A DNA stretch of 64,000 nucleotides. Source: a phage. The stretch lies in the sequence record PZ386974.1, one strand, 5' to 3'. The notes beneath the pieces are model-generated. The model saw nothing but the letters and a program-made list of their open reading frames with translations. It made no database searches and was not told the origin of the DNA. A program made the translations under genes and the position numbers. Shown one piece after another: positions 1,974 to 60,610 of this stretch; position 1 is the stretch's first letter; every line of letters begins with the position of its first letter.

Positions 1974-1989
1974 GGGAGCCGAAGCTCCC
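1974..1989 (-). terminator. intrinsic terminator hairpin GGGAGC-CGAA-GCUCCC plus U-run
   Basis: 6-bp GC stem, UUCG loop on minus transcript, A4 on plus strand just left of stem (U-run on the transcript); 5 nt after stop of ORF 1995..2174. Confidence 0.6.
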
Positions 1990-1994
1990 TAAAA

Positions 1995-2174
1995 TTATGC
2001 AACAACCTTTCCAAAACGAGAAGCATCATCTCGAAGAACTGCACGTGCTCTGCGCATGATCTTCTCAACTGTTTGATTAATACGAGAGTTCGACCCACGC
2101 TTGTATCCAGCGCGTTTAGAGGTACCATCAACTTTCTTTTCAACTGCTTTCTTTGCTTTAGCTTGTTTTGCCAT
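1995..2174 (-). CDS. small basic protein (59 aa, Lys/Arg-rich)
   Basis: Own translation: MAKQAKAKKAVEKKVDGTSKRAGYKRGSNSRINQTVEKIMRRARAVLRDDASRFGKVVA; ATG start, terminator immediately downstream; below ORF-track size cutoff. Confidence 0.4.
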   Translation of the reverse strand: MAKQAKAKKAVEKKVDGTSKRAGYKRGSNSRINQTVEKIMRRARAVLRDDASRFGKVVA

Positions 2175-2469
2175 TATAAATTCTCTTTAAATGAAAATGC
2201 AGGACTTATTGACATTGCCTGCGCAAGTCCTCAAGGGGAACATAGGTTTTGGATATTTAACGACAGGATAACCATAAACCCGTCATCATACCACCCACGA
2301 CTTAGACAGATAACCTTTTTCTGACGCGTGATAGTATAAAATACATTCAAGAGGTACACCGTAAAACTGCCGGGGTCTTAAAACTATAATGATTCGCAAA
2401 TCATTAATCAGACAGTTCGACGGCTCCTCGATTTTCTAGCCGCACTTAAGGTAGCGAATCACCTAAAAC

Positions 2470-2718
2470 TTATTTAAGGGTGATAACAAAATGACGTACT
2501 GCTTTACGAGCTGCAGAAGCCAAAGGCTTAGCGTATTTCAGTTCATCTTTTGCTTCCAGTTCAGAAGCCAAAGCTGCCTGTACCGGGTTCAGATGTTTGA
2601 AATATCGCAGGATTTCAAGAGCTTCGGCTTCAACATCAATAGATGCGCCATAGTTTTCGTGGCCGTTATTCCATGCGTTTCGTTGCAGTTCAAGAGCGTG
2701 TTGTAATTGTTTAATCAT
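2470..2718 (-). CDS. rIII: rIII-like lysis-inhibition accessory protein (82 aa)
   Basis: 82-aa ORF beside gene 31 on the same strand; size and position match T4 rIII as recalled. Confidence 0.5.
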   Translation of the reverse strand: MIKQLQHALELQRNAWNNGHENYGASIDVEAEALEILRYFKHLNPVQAALASELEAKDELKYAKPLASAARKAVRHFVITLK

Positions 2719-2834
2719 TTTAAATTCTCAATTCGAGATAATATTTAGTAGCCACGTTCGTCTGAATTTCACTTCCTTTCGACAAGTCTCTCAGTTGTAG
2801 GCTACCGCTTAGAAGAGTGTTCTCTTCATATAGT

Positions 2835-2842
2835 TATTTATA
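2835..2842 (-). promoter_or_regulatory. possible late promoter (TATAAATA on minus strand)
   Basis: Exact TATAAATA octamer just 3' of gene 31 stop, 117 nt upstream of the rIII ATG. Confidence 0.3.
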
Positions 2843-3175
2843 TCACTTATAAAGACACGGAATAGCTTTATAGTGGCATGTTACGAATTTCTGTTTAATT
2901 TCTTTAGGATGTTTAAGTCCCAAAGCCACAAATGGATGTGGAACATTTCGAATTTGTCCAACTGGTAGTGGAGTCAAATCACCGACTTCAACAAAACCTT
3001 CAGGAACATCAGGACCTACAGAATGAACTACACATAGTTCAGGAACTTCACCTTGAACACGTTTACCAATCACAAGTCCTGATTCGGTAACTTCTTCATC
3101 ACCTGCTTGAGCGGGTTCAGAAACCAGAATGACATATTCACCAACAGCACGAATTGGGAGTTGTACTTCAGACAT
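2843..3175 (-). CDS. 31: co-chaperonin gp31 (GroES analogue)
   Basis: 110-aa [31 protein letters not shown]..., near-identical to T4 gp31 as recalled; ATG start. Confidence 0.9.
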
Positions 3176-3232
3176 CTTATTTCCTTGTTGTTTGACGATA
3201 GATTAATAATACCATACTATTCGTAAAGCATA

Positions 3233-3541
3233 TTACATAAGAAGCAAACGTTCTACTGGAGTACCATCAACCGAAATTACTTTATCAAGGCGGAAAGAAC
3301 GCCACTGACCTAACTCGGTATCGAATGCTCGAACTGATTCACGAGGTTCAGAACGAACTTCTGTTGATGGGTTACTATTTTCATATTTGACTTCAAGTTC
3401 ATCGCGGGAGGCAAACATCGTACGAACATCACCGTTAGCCTTTTCAAATACAACACAATGAACGCCTACAGACAGAATAGTTTTAATACGTTCACGAAGA
3501 ACCATAGTTTCTCGTTCAGTTAAAATCATATTATTCACCAC
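3233..3541 (-). CDS. hypothetical protein (102 aa)
   Basis: ORF track; lies between cd and 31. Confidence 0.5.
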   Translation of the reverse strand: MVNNMILTERETMVLRERIKTILSVGVHCVVFEKANGDVRTMFASRDELEVKYENSNPSTEVRSEPRESVRAFDTELGQWRSFRLDKVISVDGTPVERLLLM

Positions 3542-4112
3542 AAAAGTTTCGGATTTGTTCCCAATTCAGAGAACGAAGATTATTACGAGAGTACTGAATT
3601 ACTTCAATACCGGCTTGTTTTAGAATTTCGGCCCAATTTTCAGGAGATCTGTCATATAATTCCGCGTATACAACCTTTTTAATACCTGACTGCGTAATAG
3701 CTTTAGTGCAATCAGGACACGGAGAAAGCGTAGTATATAACGTAGCACCTTCAATAGAATTACCTTTACGAGCTGCAAACAAAATTGCGTTCAGTTCCGC
3801 ATGGATTTCGTTATTAGCAGACCATGCACTATGAGCGGCCCGATGTTCTTTAGCCAAAACAAAATTATCCACCCGTCCAAATGCTGTAGTGCCTTCTTTA
3901 TGCCCAGCAACGATGACCGGGCTTGGTTTATTCTTCAACCAACCGTTTTCGGATGCATGTTCGCAACAGTTTGTACCACCTGAAGGAGAGCCATTATAAC
4001 CTGTAGAAATAATGCGTCCATCCTTTTCAATGACGGCACCAACTTTCCATGAACAACATTTTGATTCTTGAGAAATCAGATATGCAATCTGAAGGTATGT
4101 GCTAGCTTTCAT
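3531..4112 (-). CDS. cd: dCMP deaminase
   Basis: 193 aa; zinc-binding HAE and PCxxC motifs (HAELNAI...SPCPDC); size matches T4 Cd; ATG overlaps upstream stop (TAATG). Confidence 0.9.
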   Translation of the reverse strand: MKASTYLQIAYLISQESKCCSWKVGAVIEKDGRIISTGYNGSPSGGTNCCEHASENGWLKNKPSPVIVAGHKEGTTAFGRVDNFVLAKEHRAAHSAWSANNEIHAELNAILFAARKGNSIEGATLYTTLSPCPDCTKAITQSGIKKVVYAELYDRSPENWAEILKQAGIEVIQYSRNNLRSLNWEQIRNFCGE

Positions 4113-44112: not shown

Positions 44113-44535
44113 TTATTTAAATTTAATTTTCTGAAGTGCATCAATTGCAGCCAAACGCCCTTGTTCACTTTTAACTGTAATGACCACATCGCCTGATACG
44201 ATCACCGAACCATCAACAAATTCTATAGAGCCTTTTTTGAAATCGACAGCTGTATCTGGTTCCGGAACTTCTTCAAAGAATTTAAATTCTGCACCATAAA
44301 GCAGAATATCACCTTGCATACTAATGATTGTACGTCCAGGTCCATCGGTTTCAGCGGCAATCATTGAAACACCGTAACCAATCATCTCTTCTACAATAAA
44401 ATCTCTTGATAATAAAACTGTATGCAGAGTAGTGTTAAGACGTTTACCAGTTGTATTAAGAATTCTCAAGAAATTATCTTCTTGACCTTTGATAATACGA
44501 TATTTCTTACCAACTTCAAAACCTTTAAAAGCCAT
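44113..44535 (-). CDS. hypothetical protein (140 aa)
   Basis: ORF track; ATG start; occupies the slot upstream of gene 39 where T4 has goF/39.x. Confidence 0.5.
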   Translation of the reverse strand: MAFKGFEVGKKYRIIKGQEDNFLRILNTTGKRLNTTLHTVLLSRDFIVEEMIGYGVSMIAAETDGPGRTIISMQGDILLYGAEFKFFEEVPEPDTAVDFKKGSIEFVDGSVIVSGDVVITVKSEQGRLAAIDALQKIKFK

Positions 44536-44537
44536 AA

Positions 44538-44717
44538 TTAACCCTTCTTAAGTAAGTCGTAAAAACCACCGTTCACATGTTTAGGAGCAGAAACCCGACG
44601 AGTAGACAGACGATGACATTCAGGGCAAACATCGTTTTCTCGTTCAGAAATCCTTTTAATTTTTTCATATTCATGGCCACAATCTTCAGATTGGCATTTA
44701 TAGTCGTATAACGGCAT
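44538..44717 (-). CDS. FmdB-family zinc-ribbon protein (59 aa)
   Basis: Own translation [41 protein letters not shown]...; CxxxxC...CxxC pattern; TAATG coupling upstream. Confidence 0.45.
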   Translation of the reverse strand: MPLYDYKCQSEDCGHEYEKIKRISERENDVCPECHRLSTRRVSAPKHVNGGFYDLLKKG

Positions 44718-45130
44718 TATTGTTCCTTAAAGTGAGCTTTCAACATTTGATACAAAGACCATGCCTGGTCATTATTTTCGATAGTAATCGTCATCACAGG
44801 AAATTCAGACAATTCGTCAAGTTCACCAGAATCTTGCTCTTCGGACGCTTGATATGGATTTCCAACTTCGTCAAAGAACTCTGCTTCATTCGTGGAGAGC
44901 CAGATAAAGTTTTCATCAAGGATATCACCACCTGTTGCGTATCCAACCATGCCAGTAGATGTCACAATTTTAGTAGGACGACCAAGATGGTCAACATCTA
45001 ATACTTTAAATGGTTCCATGCCAAGACGTCGTGCATAAATCCCATTATCAGTGTGGTCTTTAATAAACTCTTCTTGGGCACGTTTATCTATGAACTGATA
45101 CCATTTATTAACTTCAAATTTATTAGCCAT
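44717..45130 (-). CDS. hypothetical acidic protein (137 aa)
   Basis: Track start 45148 is TTG; ATG at 45130 forms TAATG overlap with upstream stop. Confidence 0.5.
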
Positions 45131-45357
45131 TAGTAAGTTTCCTTCCAATAAGTTGTGCCGTTTTCAGTGATTTCACGGAAGATACCATAGATAGGCATTT
45201 CATCGCCGAGTTTTTCGTAAACGTAAACCACTTCGGTGTAGCATAAAAATTCGGTCCAGTTTTTCTGTACAACAACTAAATCAGGATTAAACAGAACATC
45301 TTCAAACTCATCAATGTTTGAATCAGTAGTTACGTTTTTAATGATTTGACGTTTCAT
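45130..45357 (-). CDS. hypothetical protein (75 aa)
   Basis: Track ORF 45130..45402; ATG at 45357 has strong SD AGAGGAG and lies downstream of the promoter box. Confidence 0.4.
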
Positions 45358-45414: not shown

Positions 45415-45939
45415 TCATTTTAGCAAAATAAAATCAACTTGTTCTGCCAATGAACGTCTAAACATTAATTGACAACTTCCGAGGATGAAATCAGGTGCTT
45501 CATAGACAGCGATGTAGTATCCTTTAGCTTTCAAGAGTTCAACATCCACCTGGTCATCAAACCATGCATAAACCGCGTCAACACTTTCAAATCCAAAATA
45601 GAACCCTTGAGCCCAATCTTCACTCAATTCAAATGTGTGCTCAATTCTATGGTATCTTAAGATATTTTGTTCAAGGAGTTTGTCTTCATTTACTGTAGGA
45701 CGATTAGGGACATTATAGTTGTCGCCGTGATGGTAGAAGTTACCTGAGATTATTCCGTGTTTATCAAGGAACTCCCATGTTTCTTCAGAGTTGTCGGTGC
45801 CAGACCAACCGTATGGCGAGCGAGGTTCTTTATTCCAAGAGGTTTCCCAAATTCTGACGGCTTTACCGTCTTCGATAGCAATTCCTGGTAATGATTCACG
45901 TTGAGTACAAAAACTACGTTCTACGCGGTAAACTAACAT
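45415..45939 (-). CDS. hypothetical protein (174 aa)
   Basis: ORF track. Confidence 0.5.
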   Translation of the reverse strand: MLVYRVERSFCTQRESLPGIAIEDGKAVRIWETSWNKEPRSPYGWSGTDNSEETWEFLDKHGIISGNFYHHGDNYNVPNRPTVNEDKLLEQNILRYHRIEHTFELSEDWAQGFYFGFESVDAVYAWFDDQVDVELLKAKGYYIAVYEAPDFILGSCQLMFRRSLAEQVDFILLK

Positions 45940-45998
45940 ATTATTCTCCTCTGGTTGATAGGTCTATAATACCAAAACCAGAGGAGAAGTAAACAACT

Positions 45999-46418
45999 TT
46001 ATGCGAAAGCCGCTGGGCTATATTTTTTAATTTGGAATTCAGGAACTACCATGAACTGTCCAGCAAAAACAATATTGTAGAGCTTGACGCCATCTTCTAT
46101 CCAACGGTCGCTAATAAATCCGGCGATTTGCTTAGTTTTCCATGGCGTTCCATCAGTTGCCGCAGCAATAGTGAATTCATGGTCTTTTTCAACAGAAACT
46201 GATCTGCATAGTCCCCATTTGAACGCACGTTCTTCTGGCTCAATGAACTGGCTTGAGACGTAGCCAATATTACCATTGGCATCACGAACTTTAACTTGGT
46301 TACGACCAAAAACCGGATCACTCACAGAAAGAACTTCAACCAACTTCCCGGCAACTTTAGAGCGAGAAGCAACAGATACATATACGTAATCACCTGTAGA
46401 GAGATTTACAATATTCAT
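45999..46418 (-). CDS. hypothetical protein, paralog family member A (139 aa)
   Basis: Shares N-terminal SVASRSKVAGKLVEV and C-terminal GFISDRWIEDGVKLYNIVF blocks with the next two ORFs. Confidence 0.55.
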   Translation of the reverse strand: MNIVNLSTGDYVYVSVASRSKVAGKLVEVLSVSDPVFGRNQVKVRDANGNIGYVSSQFIEPEERAFKWGLCRSVSVEKDHEFTIAAATDGTPWKTKQIAGFISDRWIEDGVKLYNIVFAGQFMVVPEFQIKKYSPAAFA

Positions 46419-46427
46419 AATAATTCC

Positions 46428-46892
46428 TTAAGCTTTACGAGGAGACACATAGCGAGTGATTTCAGATTCTTTAACAACTCGGAAGTCACCTAAGAATACG
46501 ATATTGTATAACTTTTCACCATCTTCAACCCATTGGTCACTAATGAAGCCACACATAGTATCAGTTTTGCTTGGATAACCGTATTCATCGATGAAGTCAA
46601 ATTCTTTATCGGTTATAAATTCAACGCCTTTGCAAAGGGCCCATTTGAACTGTGTAGTAGGCTCAACGATATCGCTTGAAGCAAAGTGGGCACTTACACG
46701 AGTTTCCAAGAATTTAGGACTTACATAGGCGAACTGAGTTTCAGTTTTTCCAGAACTAGGAATGATTCGAACTTTAACTTCTTTAATACGTCCCATGCCA
46801 TTTGTGCGAAGTCCGACAACTTCAACCAGACGACCTGCGGCTTTAGAACGGGATGCAGTTGATACACGCTTAATTTCACCAATATTAATCAT
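46428..46892 (-). CDS. hypothetical protein, paralog family member B (154 aa)
   Basis: Track ORF 46428..46955; ATG at 46892 gives an N-terminus MINIGEIKRVSTASRSKAAGRLVEV aligned with paralog A. Confidence 0.55.
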   Translation of the reverse strand: MINIGEIKRVSTASRSKAAGRLVEVVGLRTNGMGRIKEVKVRIIPSSGKTETQFAYVSPKFLETRVSAHFASSDIVEPTTQFKWALCKGVEFITDKEFDFIDEYGYPSKTDTMCGFISDQWVEDGEKLYNIVFLGDFRVVKESEITRYVSPRKA

Positions 46893-46954
46893 ATTTTTTC
46901 TCTCTTTGTTTAAATTGAATTCATTATACTCCATCCATCCTTGGATGTACAACA

Positions 46955-47449
46955 TTAATTTAGAATATTAACCATAGCACTACGTGGAACTACACTAAAA
47001 TCACCTGCATGAACAACGTTCAGAAGTTCAACACCGTCTTCAATCCACTGATCAGTTACCCATCCACTCACTGGACCTGCGAACGGACGTCGAATTGAAA
47101 CAGCTTTACACAACAAATCAGTAGGCTCAATAGGCTTAATCAGAGTACCGTACATACAAGCGATATCCATATCAATACAGATGTCTTTAACGGGTTCTAC
47201 TTCTTCAATCAACAGTTCAAAGTCAGTGCTTGGAATGGCGGTAGTAGAAATTGTACCGTGTGAATTTTTAATTTCTAAGAATAACCAAGGGCCTTCAGCT
47301 TGTTTGATGAAGTTAACAATAGTGAAACTATTACCTTGAGTGGCACCTAAAATTTCACAAAACTTTTCATAAGCTCGCACTGAAGCACCGTACCAGTTGA
47401 TTTGTTTTTCGTCTTTCATGATGTAAGTAGCCGTAGTATTGATGTTCAT
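46955..47449 (-). CDS. hypothetical protein, paralog family member C (164 aa)
   Basis: C-terminal block GWVTDQWIEDGVELLNVVHAGDF homologous to paralogs A/B; sits in the dexA-proximal slot where T4 has motB/dexA.x. Confidence 0.55.
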   Translation of the reverse strand: MNINTTATYIMKDEKQINWYGASVRAYEKFCEILGATQGNSFTIVNFIKQAEGPWLFLEIKNSHGTISTTAIPSTDFELLIEEVEPVKDICIDMDIACMYGTLIKPIEPTDLLCKAVSIRRPFAGPVSGWVTDQWIEDGVELLNVVHAGDFSVVPRSAMVNILN

Positions 47450-47515
47450 AATGTTTTTCCTGTTTGGTTAAGATAGAAAGATTATACTCCAACCATCCTT
47501 GGTTGTAAACTGATT

Positions 47516-48193
47516 TTATCGCTGTTTTACACTTAACGGGTCAGGATTCTCAGGGACATCTTCAAGGCCAAGCGCATAACGCTGAGCATATTTTAACATC
47601 AAAATATCTTTAGCACAATCATGAATACTATCATGAGCAACGAATCCTTTTAGCGTACCCATCGGTAATGGACACATACTTAATCCTCGTGTCAACGAGT
47701 AAGCTTCGATTGCCGTACGAATATCACGTTGAGCCCAGAATTTAACCGGTTCTAATTTATCAGTATCAATCTCTGGTTCAAGAACACCTTCATCACGATA
47801 GAGGTCACGAATCAAATCGACCAAGATCGGGAAGTCAAAGCTCATACCGCGGCACCACATCTGTGATTTCCATTGGTCAACTTTATTAGCTCGACAATAA
47901 TCTAAAAAGATTTTAATGCCTTCAAGCGTAGTGACATCGTCTTCAGACGGAGCCAAGTTTTTACGCGCTTCAGCCGATTGTTCTTTCCACCATTTCATAG
48001 TGGATTTAGCGAAAACTCGCTTCCCTTTCTGAGAAGCTAAATTAAATTTAATTCGCTTACCTCGTTGAACAAGTTCTTCAAATGATTCAACAACTTCAGG
48101 GTCGGAATTATATGCAATAACCGCAAGGTCAATAACAGCCGCTTTTGATGTATTGCCGAATGTTTCAAAATCTATAATAACATCAGTGCTCAT
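47516..48193 (-). CDS. dexA: exonuclease A (DEDD 3'-5' exonuclease)
   Basis: 225 aa; N-terminal IIDFETFG Exo I motif and C-terminal H-x4-D; size and position match T4 DexA. Confidence 0.85.
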   Translation of the reverse strand: MSTDVIIDFETFGNTSKAAVIDLAVIAYNSDPEVVESFEELVQRGKRIKFNLASQKGKRVFAKSTMKWWKEQSAEARKNLAPSEDDVTTLEGIKIFLDYCRANKVDQWKSQMWCRGMSFDFPILVDLIRDLYRDEGVLEPEIDTDKLEPVKFWAQRDIRTAIEAYSLTRGLSMCPLPMGTLKGFVAHDSIHDCAKDILMLKYAQRYALGLEDVPENPDPLSVKQR

Positions 48194-48202
48194 AATTTTC
48201 TC

Positions 48203-49516
48203 TCAAATAAAATGGACGTCAAACCGGCCACGAGTTGTGCCGACATACAATAACTGTTTAGCTAATTCCGAATCAGCATAATGGATACACGGTGTATAAA
48301 CAAAGGCCGTGTCAACAGACATACCCTGGGCCTTATGGAAGGTTGATACTGGTAGTGCCTTCACCTTAGTGAACATACGTTTAGCATCCCAGAATTCGCT
48401 CCATGGAGCTTTACCACCTTTATTCCAGAATTTGTATGTTTCTGCGGCCTTAGCCAAAAACAAATTGAATTTATAAAGCTCTTCTTCTGAAGAAATAACC
48501 TTTATATCTTCGCGGATGTATTCTTCATCATCCCCATATGTTTCTACTGTAAGATTCCAGTATCGTATCATATATTCGCCTGAAACACCACGTGCTTTAA
48601 CGAATGTAGACGTTTCTACAGCATCTCGAATACGAACGAATTGCCCGTTATTGAAAAGCATTTCGGTCATATTTTTACAATCTAGCTTATATGTCTTAGT
48701 AAATGGCTCTTGTAGAACAATGACTTCGTCTTTAATAAATGGTTTTTCTGTTTCAAGAAGTTTTCGGCGAATAATTGAATTTAACTTGTCCACCGACTTA
48801 TTTGTGAATGCCATCATTCGATTTTCGAAAAGGTCTTCAGGAGTTTTAACGACATTAAAATAGTTCGTCATATACGATTTAAGGTCTGTATATCCATGAA
48901 CACCATGCCCGTCAACTACTTTATCGTAAATCCATTTGCCATTACGAATATCAGTCGCAACATCAATAATTGGTGCATTGCTACGTTTAACTTCTGTAAG
49001 GTTGCATTGCACGAAGTCTTTGTGAGTGAAGAAAGGACTTAGATACGCAGTTGATTCGCCTGGATCTACCGGACGAATCTGGCATCGGTCGCCGATTCCA
49101 ATTACTGTACACCATTTAGGGATACTAGCTAACATTATTTTAAACAGAGAACGGTCGCACATTGACGCTTCATCAAATAACAGTACACGACACAAGGCTA
49201 AGTCGGGAACCTTTTTCTGTTCAAACAATACGTTTTCTTCGTATGTAGTTGGGTTGATTTTAAGAATGCTATGAATAGTCGATGCTTCTTGACCAGCAAG
49301 TTTGCTTAGAACCTTTTTAGCAGCATGTGTAGGGGCTGCTAAAATAATGCCTGATTCTCCGGCAGAAATAAGAGCTTCAACGATGAATCTAGTAAGGGTT
49401 GTTTTACCTGTACCAGCAGGCCCATTAATAGTTACGTGATGTTTCTTTTCTTTAATAGCTTTCATAACAACGTTGAAGGCGTTTTTCTGGCCTTCAGTCA
49501 AATCATCAAATGTCAT
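48203..49516 (-). CDS. dda: Dda DNA helicase (SF1B)
   Basis: 437 aa; Walker A GPAGTGKTT, Walker B LFDEASM; collinear with T4 Dda as recalled. Confidence 0.92.
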   Translation of the reverse strand: MTFDDLTEGQKNAFNVVMKAIKEKKHHVTINGPAGTGKTTLTRFIVEALISAGESGIILAAPTHAAKKVLSKLAGQEASTIHSILKINPTTYEENVLFEQKKVPDLALCRVLLFDEASMCDRSLFKIMLASIPKWCTVIGIGDRCQIRPVDPGESTAYLSPFFTHKDFVQCNLTEVKRSNAPIIDVATDIRNGKWIYDKVVDGHGVHGYTDLKSYMTNYFNVVKTPEDLFENRMMAFTNKSVDKLNSIIRRKLLETEKPFIKDEVIVLQEPFTKTYKLDCKNMTEMLFNNGQFVRIRDAVETSTFVKARGVSGEYMIRYWNLTVETYGDDEEYIREDIKVISSEEELYKFNLFLAKAAETYKFWNKGGKAPWSEFWDAKRMFTKVKALPVSTFHKAQGMSVDTAFVYTPCIHYADSELAKQLLYVGTTRGRFDVHFI

Positions 49517-59167: not shown

Positions 59168-60610
59168 TTAAAATTTTAACTCATTGGCTAAGCTATCTAG
59201 GTCAGCACGTGTTGCTTTGGCTTTACCTACGCGTTCCGTACGATTCACCTCTGCCTGACGCATCTGAGCACCTGCGTTTTCATTTACTGTGTTAGGTGTG
59301 TTCATGCCTTCTTGCTCAATCTCGATCCATTTCTGGTTGCCTTTACGTACACCCATCAGGAATTTATTCCACTTATTCTTATCACCATATCGTGATTTTA
59401 TTTGTTTGATAAGTTGTTGTTCAGCTTGTGCAAGTTCTTCGGTTTCAATTACGGCCAACATGAAATCTGCCGTTGCTGGTAAACCTGCTGATTCTGCGAT
59501 ATCACTCATGTTCATGTCTGAAGCATCCCATGCTGCACGTCCTACTTGAGCTGCAGTCCATAGAACTGTTTCAGATTCTACTGCTAATGCACGAAGTTCT
59601 TCTGCGATAGCTTTAACTAATGTGTAGCTATTTTCAGTGTAAACTCTGATACGACAAGACCCACAAATACCTAAGTAATCAACCATGATTACAGACGGCA
59701 CAAAGTTCTTCTTAAGTTTTAACTCATTAAGCAATGCACGAAATGTATTAGCATTAGCTCCACCAGTAGGATACTGTTTAACTACTAAACGTCCTAATGT
59801 GGATTTTGAACGCCATTTTTCCATCTTGGCTTTATATTCAGCATAAGATACGTTACCATCATCGATATCATCGAGTGATACGTCAAGCATGTTTGCATCT
59901 ATACGCTTAGCACAAACTTCTTCAGCCATTTCCATGGAAATATAAAGAACATTATGACCTGTTTGAAGATAATCTGCAGCAAGTGAACAAAGGCCTAAAG
60001 ATTTACCAACGTTAACACCGGCCATTAAAACATTCAGTGTACCGGTTTCAGCACCACCTTTAGTGATTTTATTCAGAATGTTTAATTTGAACGGGACCTT
60101 ACGTGCTTTATTTAGATAAGAAAGCCAGCGTGCTTCGTAGTCTTCCATCCAGTCATGTCCAACATAACTATCAAACGAAATTGAAAGTGCTTGACGCATA
60201 ATATCAGGAATAGCTCCTACGTCAGGCATTTTCTTGTTACGTTGTTCTGGAGGTAGTTCAGCATTAGACTGAATCTCAATGATTTTGGATGTAGCATTAT
60301 ACATCGCTTTTTGCTGGACATATTTCTCAGTTTCTTTAACCAACCATTCATGGTCTTCAGGAGTATCAGCCAATTTTTCAATTAGGTCTGAAGTTCCTTT
60401 ATATTCTGCTTCAGTTAAAGAACTATTATCTAAAGCCACCTTTAATGCATTGATAGATGGCATTGCATTATATTCGTTAACGTGGCTCTTTATAATTTTA
60501 AAGACGTTTTTTGCCGGTCCACGCTCAAAATACTCAGAATCCATATAAGGCCAGACCTTAGAAAAATAAGCCTGGTCATATACTAGATGAGACAAAATAA
60601 TTTCTACCAC
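59168..60610 (-). CDS. 41: replicative DNA helicase gp41 (DnaB-like)
   Basis: 480 aa; Walker A GVNVGKS and RecA-like core; GTG start with SD AAGGAG. Confidence 0.92.
   Translation of the reverse strand: MVEIILSHLVYDQAYFSKVWPYMDSEYFERGPAKNVFKIIKSHVNEYNAMPSINALKVALDNSSLTEAEYKGTSDLIEKLADTPEDHEWLVKETEKYVQQKAMYNATSKIIEIQSNAELPPEQRNKKMPDVGAIPDIMRQALSISFDSYVGHDWMEDYEARWLSYLNKARKVPFKLNILNKITKGGAETGTLNVLMAGVNVGKSLGLCSLAADYLQTGHNVLYISMEMAEEVCAKRIDANMLDVSLDDIDDGNVSYAEYKAKMEKWRSKSTLGRLVVKQYPTGGANANTFRALLNELKLKKNFVPSVIMVDYLGICGSCRIRVYTENSYTLVKAIAEELRALAVESETVLWTAAQVGRAAWDASDMNMSDIAESAGLPATADFMLAVIETEELAQAEQQLIKQIKSRYGDKNKWNKFLMGVRKGNQKWIEIEQEGMNTPNTVNENAGAQMRQAEVNRTERVGKAKATRADLDSLANELKF

What the first reader, a model, noticed from the sequence alone, without database searches (positions are those of the whole stretch)
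45999..47449. Tandem trio of paralogous genes sharing a C-terminal W-x-EDG domain
Three consecutive leftward ORFs (139, 154 and 164 aa) share a C-terminal block: GFISDRWIEDGVKLYNIVFAGQF, GFISDQWVEDGEKLYNIVFLGDF and GWVTDQWIEDGVELLNVVHAGDF. The first two also share an N-terminal SxASRSKxAGxLVEV block. Local duplication and divergence of a small domain is unusual in a tightly packed early region. The slot is where T4 has motB and the dexA.x ORFs, so these may be DNA-binding or host-takeover factors.
Basis: seen in the sequence. Interest (0 to 1): 0.4.

Follow-up and report, generated by a model that had tools for sequence, protein, structure and literature searches.

The report
MotB-family gene trio in T4-like phage
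The three neighbouring genes are real relatives of each other, but they are the already described MotB / MotB.1 family of early T4-like phage proteins (DNA-coating factors that disturb the host's H-NS gene silencing), in the same arrangement already reported for phage RB69, so the finding is correct but ordinary.

Summary
Three consecutive minus-strand genes (A 45999-46418, B 46428-46892, C 46955-47449) are paralogs: A-B align over their full length (42% identity, E 2e-31), and C shares only the C-terminal ~55-75 residues with them (E ~1e-11; shuffle z 16-18).

The window is a Mosigvirus, ~96.5% identical to phage moskry. All three pass the Pfam motB (PF17613) cut-off.
- B is the ortholog of T4 MotB (49% identity).
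- A is the second "MotB-like" copy found in RB69 and RB3.
- C is the ortholog of T4 MotB.1.

Patterson-West et al. 2021 already reported that MotB and MotB.1 share a C-terminal domain (CTD) behind different N-terminal domains (NTDs). They also reported that RB69 has two motB genes plus one motB.1. T4 MotB binds DNA non-specifically, remodels H-NS on DNA and doubles burst size.

Small additions from this work:
- The shared CTD is acidic or neutral, while B's KOW NTD is strongly basic. The CTD is therefore more likely a shared partner-binding or assembly module (inference).
- The duplication is old (synonymous sites saturated).
- The T4 and RB69 reference records carry indels that truncate motB.1 inside this domain.

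Verdict: already known; low interest.

The parts
46955..47449 (-). Gene C, 164 aa: ortholog of T4 MotB.1 (an RB69 motB.1-type allele). LSm/SH3-like N-terminal domain, disordered linker, MotB-family C-terminal domain.
   Evidence: 47% identity over the full length to the unframeshifted 143-aa T4 MotB.1, E 3e-46. phrog_2333, 276 bits. Pfam motB 35.6 bits against a cut-off of 25, on residues 85-159. 98% DNA identity to RB69 motB.1 plus p012.
47195..47449 (-). C N-terminal domain (residues 1-85): beta-rich domain with two helices, the LSm-like fold described for T4 MotB.1.
   Evidence: AF2 pLDDT ~83-89; strands 8-11, 42-49, 55-61, 67-73, 80-83 and helices 26-37, 74-79. Kim et al. 2025 assign this NTD to the LSm-like family with GoF and Frd.2.
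47135..47194 (-). C linker (residues ~86-105), predicted disordered. It carries the conserved motif D-M-D-I-A-C-M-Y-G-T-L-I-K-P.
   Evidence: pLDDT below 50 for residues 86-105. The same D-x-D-[IV]-A-x-M-Y motif recurs in MotB.1-type proteins and in KOW-type family members P0161, P0178, P0231, P0233, P0238 and P0239.
46958..47134 (-). C C-terminal domain (residues 106-164): the shared W-x-EDG domain, MotB.1 type (PTDLL...GWVTDQWIEDGVELLNVVHAGDFSVVPRS).
   Evidence: pLDDT 85-92. Five strands with a 3-10 helix before the last strand. 23 invariant columns across 25 family members with unrelated N-termini.
46428..46892 (-). Gene B, 154 aa: ortholog of T4 MotB. Basic KOW-like N-terminal domain, linker, C-terminal W-x-EDG domain.
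   Evidence: Pfam motB 141 bits over positions 2-157 of 162. 49% identity to T4 MotB, E 4e-46. 91% identity to RB69 MotB.
46701..46892 (-). B N-terminal KOW/SH3-like domain (residues 1-64), pI 10.7, net charge +7. Contains the VSxxSRSKAAGRLVEV block.
   Evidence: AF2 strands 7-10, 22-30, 36-43, 53-57. Charge. The NTD profile gives weak, sub-threshold matches to uL24, eL27, NusG, Spt5 KOW and SH3 chains. Invariant V10, S11, S14, S16, G20.
46431..46655 (-). B C-terminal domain (residues 80-154): W-x-EDG domain, MotB type, with a long beta-hairpin insertion. Net charge -4.
   Evidence: pLDDT 89-95; strands 89-101, 107-123, 126-133, 136-141, a 3-10 helix, then 145-149. Charge. Alignment A3.
45999..46418 (-). 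Gene A, 139 aa: second MotB paralog (RB69p010 / RB3_010 type). Same KOW + W-x-EDG architecture, but the N-terminal domain is not basic.
   Evidence: 42% identity to B. Pfam motB 74.5 bits. phrog_1671, 173 bits. 88% identity to RB3_010. At least 80% identical copies in 208 of 760 phage records, with none between 60 and 80%. NTD net charge 0.
47481..47509 (-). Sigma-70 / T4-early-type promoter-like site upstream of C (TTTACA, 17 nt spacer, TATAAT).
   Evidence: 11 of 12 consensus matches, the best in the 5.7-kb scan. Pattern match only.
46923..46951 (-). Promoter-like site upstream of B (TGTACA, 17 nt spacer, TATAAT). It lies inside the spurious 21-codon extension of the 175-aa ORF. A has no such site and starts 9 nt after B's stop, so it is probably co-transcribed with B.
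   Evidence: 10 of 12 consensus matches. Its 22-nt spacer plus -10 (CCAAGGATGGWTGGAGTATAAT) occurs only here and upstream of C in the 64-kb window; 0 expected by chance.

Best explanation
The trio is the MotB-family cluster of a Mosigvirus (RB69-like T4 relative), in the order motB.1 (C), motB (B) and a second motB paralog (A). The genes are expressed early, from sigma-70-type promoters upstream of C and B.

B probably works like T4 MotB (inferred by orthology). It would be an abundant early protein whose strongly basic KOW/SH3-like N-terminal domain binds DNA without sequence specificity. It would coat DNA cooperatively, override the H-NS/StpA footprint and so de-repress H-NS-silenced loci, giving a modest gain in burst size.

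A has the same two-domain build but a non-basic N-terminal domain. C has an acidic LSm-like N-terminal domain.

All three share a small all-beta C-terminal domain with an invariant D-x-W-x-E-x-G...L-x-N-x-V core. That domain is predicted here to be an SH3-like (Tudor/KOW-class) barrel. My inference is that it is not the main DNA-binding element. It is more likely a common partner-binding or self/hetero-association module that brings three different N-terminal 'heads' to the same target, such as the MotB-coated nucleoid or a shared host or phage partner.

Shown here: paralogy, family membership, orthology, architecture, charge distribution, age of the duplication.
Taken from T4 experiments: DNA binding and the H-NS effect of MotB.
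Inferred only: the role of the shared domain and the functions of A and C.
For: Identity and context:
- Window is 96.5% identical to Mosigvirus moskry/mar005p1.
- Gene order dda-dexA-C-B-A-motB.2-like-cef-goF is identical to RB69.

Family membership and orthology:
- Pfam PF17613: 141 bits (B), 74.5 (A), 35.6 (C), against a cut-off of 25.
- PHROG MotB-like.
- B = T4 MotB at 49% identity, C = T4 MotB.1 at 47%, A = RB3_010 at 88%.

Prior description:
- PMC7827196 reports the shared CTD, the different NTDs, and RB69 with 2 motB + 1 motB.1.

Function of T4 MotB:
- Toxic, non-specific DNA binding, co-purifies with H-NS/StpA, 2-fold burst effect (PMC6070864).
- Alters the H-NS footprint and up-regulates 75 host genes, about a third of them in the H-NS regulon (PMC7827196).

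Structure:
- AF2 models have confident domains and disordered linkers.

Charge:
- B NTD +7 (pI 10.7) against B CTD -4.
- C overall -9 (pI 4.6).
- A about neutral.

Selection:
- The same-codon fraction at identical residues is 0.31-0.52, against 0.43-0.45 expected at saturation. The duplication is therefore old and the motif is kept by purifying selection, not by gene conversion.
- The CTD is nearly invariant behind unrelated NTDs.

Family size:
- Only 32 clusters among 1.84 billion representatives match the CTD profile.
- Structure search of viral models finds relatives in other T4-like genera.
Against: - No experiment exists for any Mosigvirus copy. B is only 49% identical to T4 MotB.
- The published HHpred analysis assigns the CTD to the cold-shock OB-fold and proposes that either domain could bind DNA.
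- The T4 MotB CTD is not acidic (net +1), so the charge argument is weaker for T4.
- No test of oligomerisation or partner binding could be run. Kim et al. report that AlphaFold3 did not give confident MotB.1 homomultimers.
- T4 delta-motB.1 has no phenotype, so C may contribute little under laboratory conditions.
- The promoters are consensus matches only.
Confidence: 0.85

Rival explanations
1. The shared C-terminal domain is itself the DNA-binding element, an OB-fold of the cold-shock type as published. All three proteins are then nucleic-acid binders, and their N-terminal domains only modulate specificity or partners.
For: The HHpred assignment of the MotB CTD to SCOPe b.40.4.5, and the statement that either domain could bind DNA (PMC7827196). 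The CTD is the most conserved part of the family. The T4 MotB CTD is slightly basic (+1). Many Tudor, PWWP and SH3-like barrels also bind nucleic acids, for example PWWP with ssDNA at rank 15.
Confidence: 0.3
2. Only B is functional. A and C are redundant duplicates drifting towards loss, kept only because they hitch-hike in a dispensable early region.
For: The region is non-essential in T4. T4 lacks A altogether. T4 delta-motB.1 has a wild-type burst and latent period. The T4 and RB69 reference records carry frameshifts in motB.1. Fusion and deletion remnants exist in public data (P0036, P0241).
Against: Intact A-type ORFs at 87-99% identity are found in 208 phage records. Intact C/MotB.1-type ORFs occur in hundreds of clusters. 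Synonymous sites between the paralogs are saturated while the domain core is invariant. Between T4 and the window the motB.1 CTD differs mostly at synonymous sites. Every resequenced T4 record listed at about 99.5% identity or higher (13 records) lacks the reference frameshift.
Confidence: 0.1
3. The similarity is a chance or low-complexity motif, and the ORFs are not related genes.
For: None found.
Against: BLASTP E 2e-31 and ~1e-11. Shuffle z 16-42. All three pass the curated Pfam motB threshold. Orthologs are annotated in hundreds of phage genomes.
Confidence: 0.01

Closest known systems
T4 MotB (modifier of transcription; Pfam PF17613; phrog_1671)
   Same: B is its positional and sequence ortholog: 49% identity over the full length, between dexA and cef, with the same KOW-like NTD, linker and W-x-EDG CTD, a basic NTD and an upstream early-type promoter. 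A has the same architecture.
   Different: B is shorter in the linker and its CTD is more acidic than that of T4 MotB. A lacks the basic charge and the 'RIIPxxGKTETQ' hairpin of the NTD, and it has no counterpart in T4. No biochemistry exists for either.
T4 MotB.1 (LSm-like fold family with GoF and Frd.2; phrog_2333)
   Same: C is its ortholog: 47% identity to the 143-aa form, the same position immediately upstream of motB, an LSm/SH3-like NTD plus the MotB-type CTD, and acidic (pI 4.6 for both).
   Different: C carries a ~20-aa linker insertion with the D-M-D-I-A-C-M-Y motif, which T4 MotB.1 lacks but Sf25/RB68-type alleles have. The T4 reference protein (119 aa) is truncated within the CTD by a 1-nt insertion not seen in any of the 13 other near-identical T4-type records listed.
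RB69 cluster motB.1 - p012 - motB - RB69p010 - motB.2 (Patterson-West et al. [quoted passage not shown]
   Same: Identical gene order and 91-98% sequence identity. The window is simply another Mosigvirus with this cluster.
   Different: In the window motB.1 is one intact 164-aa ORF. In the RB69 record two extra T residues in short T runs split it into 132 aa plus the 29-aa 'category 3' peptide.
Tandem SH3-like barrel proteins (53BP1 tandem Tudor, Spt5 KOW pairs, NusG KOW, PWWP/chromo/BAH 'Royal' domains)
   Different: Sequence identity is only 10-20%. The CTD has no sequence-level link to any solved structure. There is no evidence for a methyl-lysine-type aromatic cage or for ribosome or RNA polymerase binding. 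NTD and CTD are not detectably related to each other (hhalign probability 1%).
Other phage anti-H-NS factors (T7 gp5.5, T4 Arn, Pseudomonas phage LUZ24 Mip)
   Same: Same proposed biological outcome as T4 MotB, namely relief of H-NS silencing early in infection. T7 gp5.5 and T4 Arn are discussed in PMC7827196. LUZ24 Mip rests on my own knowledge only; PMC8501957 appeared in the search listing but I did not open it.
   Different: Those proteins bind H-NS directly. MotB associates with H-NS only through DNA. No sequence or fold relationship was tested or is expected.

Membership tests
MotB family (Pfam PF17613 motB) | Profile match above the curated gathering score (25 bits) | tested here: met
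   B 141 bits (profile positions 2-157 of 162). A 74.5 bits. C 35.6 bits, C-terminal half of the profile only.
MotB family (Pfam PF17613 motB) | Two-domain build: KOW-like N-terminal domain with the VSxxSRSKxAG motif, plus the C-terminal D-Q-W-x-E-x-G...L-x-N-x-V domain | tested here: met
   Met for A and B. C has only the C-terminal domain, so it belongs to the MotB.1 subfamily rather than to MotB proper.
MotB family (Pfam PF17613 motB) | Position in the early, leftward-transcribed dda-dexA...cef-goF region of a Tevenvirinae genome | tested here: met
   Window order is dda, dexA, C, B, A, motB.2-like, cef, goF-like. T4, RB3 and RB69 show the same neighbourhood.
MotB family (Pfam PF17613 motB) | Tight non-specific DNA binding, co-purification with H-NS/StpA, toxicity in E. 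coli, burst-size effect (the properties shown for T4 MotB) | not testable with these tools
   Known only for T4 MotB (PMC6070864, PMC7827196). The proxy of basic charge is met for B (NTD pI 10.7), marginal for A (pI 7.8) and not met for C (pI 4.6).
MotB.1 / phage LSm-like fold family (Kim et al. 2025) | Full-length similarity to T4 MotB.1 and an N-terminal bent five-stranded antiparallel beta-sheet domain joined to the CTD by a flexible linker | tested here: met
   C vs 143-aa T4 MotB.1: 47% identity, E 3e-46. The AF2 NTD has five strands plus helices, and the linker has pLDDT below 50. Family description. I did not superpose the NTD on GoF or Hfq.
OB-fold, cold-shock DNA-binding type (SCOPe b.40.4.5), the published assignment for the MotB CTD | Structural matches to OB-fold proteins (CSP, S1, eIF5A/EF-P C-terminal domains) | tested here: not met
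   No BLASTP hit to A, B or C at E<=10, and no convincing tblastn hit in the window. In T4 these genes lie between dda and dexA, a gap that does not exist here.

The most novel reading that the evidence does not exclude
The conserved W-x-EDG domain is not an OB-fold DNA binder. It is a phage-specific SH3/Tudor-like adaptor, possibly working together with the conserved disordered D-x-D-V-A-x-M-Y linker motif. Through it, interchangeable N-terminal heads dock onto one common target or co-assemble into a mixed nucleoprotein coat. The heads are a basic KOW, a neutral KOW, an acidic LSm-like domain and the 'category 4' domains. T4-like phages would then tune their attack on the host nucleoid by shuffling heads onto a fixed adaptor, and the tandem paralogs would act as one hetero-oligomeric system.
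Probability: 0.25. Interest if true: 0.45.

Novelty: already known. Interest (0 to 1): 0.15.

Why it matters
It matters little as a discovery. The family, the shared C-terminal domain and even the 2 motB + 1 motB.1 arrangement of RB69-type phages are published.

The practical value is in annotation and in sharpening later experiments:
1. Gene C, which many records call 'hypothetical', is MotB.1, and A is a second MotB.
2. The CTD looks SH3-like rather than OB-fold, and it is acidic where the KOW domain is basic. This predicts which domain binds DNA.
3. The T4 (NC_000866) and RB69 (NC_004928) reference records truncate MotB.1 inside this very domain. Work based on the 119-aa T4 protein may therefore have tested a crippled allele.

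Tried and rejected
- Search for a fourth copy or remnant of the domain in the window (tblastn, all queries): none. The weak hit at 60118-60204 (E 0.02-0.1) lies outside the conserved core and was dismissed.
- Relationship to T4 DexA.1 and DexA.2: none.
- Internal duplication (is the NTD related to the CTD?): hhalign probability 1%, rejected.
- Sequence link of the CTD to any solved structure: none at E<=10. The NTD gives only sub-threshold KOW/uL24/SH3 hints.
- Recent tandem duplication or gene conversion between A, B and C: rejected, because synonymous sites are at saturation.
- Relatives outside phages: the CTD profile against 1.84 billion representatives gave 32 hits. The last few are long repeat proteins with E 4e-5 to 9e-4 and 4-7 short stretches. 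I regard them as spurious and did not follow them.
- Structured RNA in the region: nothing above Rfam thresholds (Y_RNA 26.8 bits against a threshold of 38).
- Reading T4 and RB3 loci from Python failed because L002 and L003 were never copied to /data. The sequences were pasted by hand instead.
- The Son et al. 2021 NAR paper on MotB-driven DNA compaction is not held in the library. Its content is cited only through other papers and my own knowledge.
Full report
**1. The observation.**

Listing ORFs over 44.5-49.5 kb and reading the minus strand shows three consecutive leftward genes:
- C: 46955-47449, 164 aa.
- B: 46428-46892, 154 aa. The mechanical ORF extends to an ATG at 46955, giving 175 aa.
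- A: 45999-46418, 139 aa.

Pairwise comparisons:
- A and B align end to end: 42% identity, E 2e-31.
- C aligns with A and B only over its C-terminal part: E 3e-11 and 2e-11.
- Against 2000 shuffles, the Smith-Waterman scores lie 42, 16.5 and 17.6 standard deviations above the mean.

The similarity is therefore real. It is also broader than the 23-residue block. A family alignment (A3) shows one homologous C-terminal domain of about 56 residues in C and about 75 in A and B. A and B carry an extra ~18-20-residue hairpin. Nine columns are invariant (D, W, E, G, L, N, V, G, V). No further copy exists in the 64-kb window.

**2. What the window is.**

The 1.66-kb region is 96.5% identical to Mosigvirus mar005p1 and phage moskry, and it matches 396 phage records.

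The neighbours are:
- Dda helicase (48203-49516).
- DexA exonuclease (47516-48193).
- A 174-aa MotB.2-like gene (45415-45939).
- cef.
- Two GoF-like genes.

The order dda-dexA-C-B-A-motB.2-cef-goF is exactly that of RB69.

**3. Family assignment.**

All three proteins pass the curated threshold of Pfam PF17613 'motB': B 141 bits over nearly the whole profile, A 74.5 bits, C 35.6 bits on the C-terminal half, against a cut-off of 25. In PHROGs, A and B fall in phrog_1671 'MotB-like transcriptional regulator'. C falls in phrog_2333 (unknown function), with a secondary hit to phrog_1671.

Orthology follows from sequence and position:
- B is 49% identical to T4 MotB and 91% identical to RB69 MotB.
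- A is 88% identical to RB3_010 and corresponds to RB69p010, a second 'MotB-like' gene that T4 lacks.
- C is 47% identical over its full length to T4 MotB.1.
- The 174-aa gene is the MotB.2 homolog (34% identity, E 2e-15). It lies after the trio here and in RB69. In T4 and RB3 it lies between dexA and motB.1.
They are unrelated to the trio and absent from this window.

**4. Prior knowledge.**

- Patterson-West et al. 2021 (PMC7827196) already report several of these points. [quoted passage not shown] One gene probably arose from duplication of the other. Homologs fall into four categories by N-terminal domain. [quoted passage not shown]
- Patterson-West et al. 2018 (PMC6070864) show that T4 MotB is toxic in E. 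coli and binds DNA tightly without sequence specificity. It co-purifies with H-NS and StpA, and a motB amber mutation halves burst size.
- The 2021 paper adds three results. MotB overrides the H-NS DNase I footprint at proV. It up-regulates 75 host genes, about a third of them in the H-NS regulon. It associates with H-NS only through DNA.
- Kim et al. 2025 (PMC12152347) assign the MotB.1 N-terminal domain to an LSm-like fold family with GoF and Frd.2. They find no phenotype for T4 delta-motB.1.

The finding is therefore a correct re-discovery of a described family, in the described RB69-type arrangement.

**5. Anatomy and structure.**

AlphaFold2 models were built on family alignments.

B (mean pLDDT 82):
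- A beta-rich N-terminal domain, residues 1-62.
- A disordered linker, residues 66-79.
- A very confident C-terminal domain, residues 80-154 (pLDDT 89-95).

C (mean pLDDT 80):
- An N-terminal domain, residues 1-85.
- A disordered linker, residues 86-105.
- A C-terminal domain, residues 110-164 (pLDDT 85-92).

In both proteins the C-terminal domain is a five-strand meander with a short 3-10 helix before the last strand.

This does not reproduce the published HHpred assignment of the CTD to the cold-shock OB-fold. One caveat applies. I searched whole two-domain models and cannot attribute each hit to a domain.

At the sequence level:
- The CTD profile matches nothing in the PDB.
- The NTD profile gives only sub-threshold KOW/uL24/SH3 matches.
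- NTD and CTD are not detectably related to each other.

**6. Charge distribution and what it suggests.**

- B's KOW-like NTD is strongly basic (pI 10.7, net +7), while its CTD is acidic (net -4).
- C is acidic throughout (pI 4.6, net -9).
- A is near neutral, and its NTD has lost the positive charge.
- In T4 MotB the NTD is +5 and the CTD is +1.

The one element common to all three proteins is thus the least suited to non-specific DNA coating. I infer, without proof, that the KOW domain supplies MotB's DNA affinity. The shared domain would then be a partner-binding or self/hetero-association module. This would fit the cooperative coating seen in footprints.

The linker of C carries a conserved motif, D-M-D-I-A-C-M-Y-G-T-L-I-K-P. 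It recurs in other MotB.1-type proteins. It also recurs in distant KOW-type members of the family (P0161, P0178, P0231, P0233, P0238, P0239). It behaves like a short linear motif in a disordered segment.

**7. Evolution.**

- Between the paralogs, the fraction of identical residues that use the same codon is 0.52, 0.31 and 0.38. The expectation from codon usage alone is 0.43-0.45. The duplications are therefore old, and the motif is maintained by purifying selection rather than by recent gene conversion.
- B is closer to T4 MotB (49%) than to A (42%), so A diverged before, or evolved faster than, the Mosigvirus/Tequatrovirus MotB split.
- A-type genes form a tight clade. They are 87-99% identical in 208 of 760 MotB-carrying phage records, with nothing between 60 and 80%. 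They occur in Mosigvirus and in some Tequatrovirus (RB3, RB7, RB27).
- RB3 pairs a Mosigvirus-type motB (84%) and A (88%) with a T4-type motB.1 (81% to T4). This indicates cassette exchange by recombination.
- The MotB.1-type CTD is almost invariant behind at least four unrelated N-terminal architectures.
- Distant single-copy relatives combine a KOW NTD with a MotB.1-type CTD. In one case the gene order is motB.2-motB-cef.
- The CTD family is small: 32 clusters with E<=1e-3 among 1.84 billion representatives. A structure search of viral models finds members in other T4-like genera, including Klebsiella, Yersinia, Serratia and Enterobacter phages.

**8. Expression signals.**

- The two best sigma-70-type matches in the 5.7-kb scan lie upstream of C (47509-47481, 11 of 12) and upstream of B (46951-46923, 10 of 12).
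- Their 22-nt spacer plus -10 sequences differ by one base and occur nowhere else in the window.
- The B promoter lies inside the 21-codon extension of the 175-aa ORF, and T4 MotB starts at the homologous MI(I)NIGE. The 154-aa start is therefore the correct one.
- A starts 9 nt after B's stop and has no promoter-like site, so it is probably co-transcribed with B.

These are pattern matches, not evidence of function.

**9. Mechanism and verdict.**

Most likely, the trio is a MotB-family host-takeover module.
- B acts like T4 MotB, coating DNA and perturbing H-NS/StpA silencing early in infection. This rests on orthology and on the T4 experiments.
- A and C are long-diverged paralogs. They reuse the same C-terminal barrel with different N-terminal heads, and their functions are unknown.
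- I put family identity at above 0.95. I put the MotB-like action of B at about 0.7. I put the idea that the shared domain is an association or partner module rather than the DNA binder at about 0.4.

Nothing here is new in kind. The novelty rating is 'already known' and interest is low.

Noticed in passing
L002 (T4 AF158101.6 / NC_000866.4) 2833-2848; homologous to window ~47035-47050 (-): The T4 reference motB.1 (119 aa) ends in ...GWVTDQWIGRWR* because of one extra G (ATTGGAAGATGG instead of ATT GAA GAT GG), exactly in the W-I-E-D-G motif. The rest of the domain (EDGVELLNVVHAGEYSVVPRSAVVAILN*) is intact in the next frame. The 13 other records listed at about 99.5% identity or higher (11 T4, plus RB55 and RB59) span 436 nt rather than 437, and MT984581 annotates 143 aa. 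The 143-aa protein (P0115) was seen on 256 contigs. Kim et al. 2025 had their motB.1 plasmids synthesised and cite NC_000866.4 for the T4 sequences they used, and they report a 13.8-kDa protein. They therefore probably tested the truncated form.
   Followed up: yes
L005 (RB69 NC_004928.1) 3377-3873; window 46955-47449: RB69 'motB.1' (132 aa) plus the 29-aa ORF RB69p012 together equal window gene C. RB69p012 is the 'category 3' peptide of Patterson-West 2021. The RB69 record has two extra T residues in short T runs (CCGTTTC, GACGGTTGTT) that break the frame. The 29-aa peptide is the tail of motB.1, not a separate gene.
   Followed up: yes
window 45944-45988 (-), between gene A and the motB.2-like gene: A perfect 13-bp RNA hairpin (UUCUCCUCUGGUU / AACCAGAGGAGAA; -23.9 kcal/mol, z -4.8). 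Its loop contains the -10 (TATTAT) of a promoter-like site, and its 3' arm contains the Shine-Dalgarno GAGGAG of the downstream motB.2-like gene. Read-through transcripts would hide the ribosome site, while transcripts started at the internal promoter would not. This is a layout known for several T4 genes (own knowledge). T4 has a similar but weaker arrangement upstream of its motB.2.
   Followed up: partly
window 46923-46944 and 47481-47502 (-): The promoter-like sites upstream of B and C share a 22-nt spacer plus -10 sequence, CCAAGGATGG(A/T)TGGAGTATAAT, found nowhere else in the 64 kb (0 expected). The T4 motB promoter has a different spacer. Either the promoter was duplicated with the gene, or the spacer carries an extra signal.
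   Followed up: partly
window 46893-46955 (-); L001 3529-4056: Phage moskry and many database entries (172-175 aa forms such as P0001, P0005, P0007) annotate MotB from the upstream ATG that overlaps C's stop codon. This adds 21 residues (MLYIQGWMEYNEFNLNKERKN) that are a translation of the promoter region. It is probably a wrong start.
   Followed up: partly
P0036 (173 aa, Logan contig) and P0241 (43 aa): Apparent recombination products within the cluster. P0036 joins the N-terminal domain of B-type MotB to the C-terminal domain of A-type, which is a deletion between the tandem paralogs. P0241 joins the first 14 residues of MotB.2 to the last 29 of the MotB.1 CTD. Copy number in this cluster is evidently dynamic.
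   Followed up: no
L003 (RB3 NC_025419.1) 1977-3903: Tequatrovirus RB3 is mosaic here. Its motB.2 and motB.1 are T4-type (motB.1 81% identical to T4). Its motB (84%) and the extra MotB-like gene (88%) are Mosigvirus-type. This implies exchange of a motB + motB' cassette between genera.
   Followed up: partly
window 45415-45939 (-): The MotB.2 homolog (174 aa, phrog_1106, 34% identical to T4 MotB.2) lies downstream of the trio, next to cef, as in RB69. In T4 and RB3 it lies between dexA and motB.1. This is a local gene-order rearrangement. A distant relative (L006) has the order motB.2-motB-cef.
   Followed up: partly
window 44717-45148 (-) and 44113-44535 (-): Two further neighbours (143 and 140 aa) both match phrog_622 and goF families, and they are weakly similar to each other (E 0.03). 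Kim et al. 2025 link GoF to the MotB.1 N-terminal domain, so this early region holds a second set of distant paralogs related to the N-terminal domain of gene C.
   Followed up: no
window 47207-47300 (-): A sub-threshold Rfam match to Y_RNA (26.8 bits against a gathering score of 38, E 0.012) lies inside the coding sequence of gene C. I regard it as chance.
   Followed up: no
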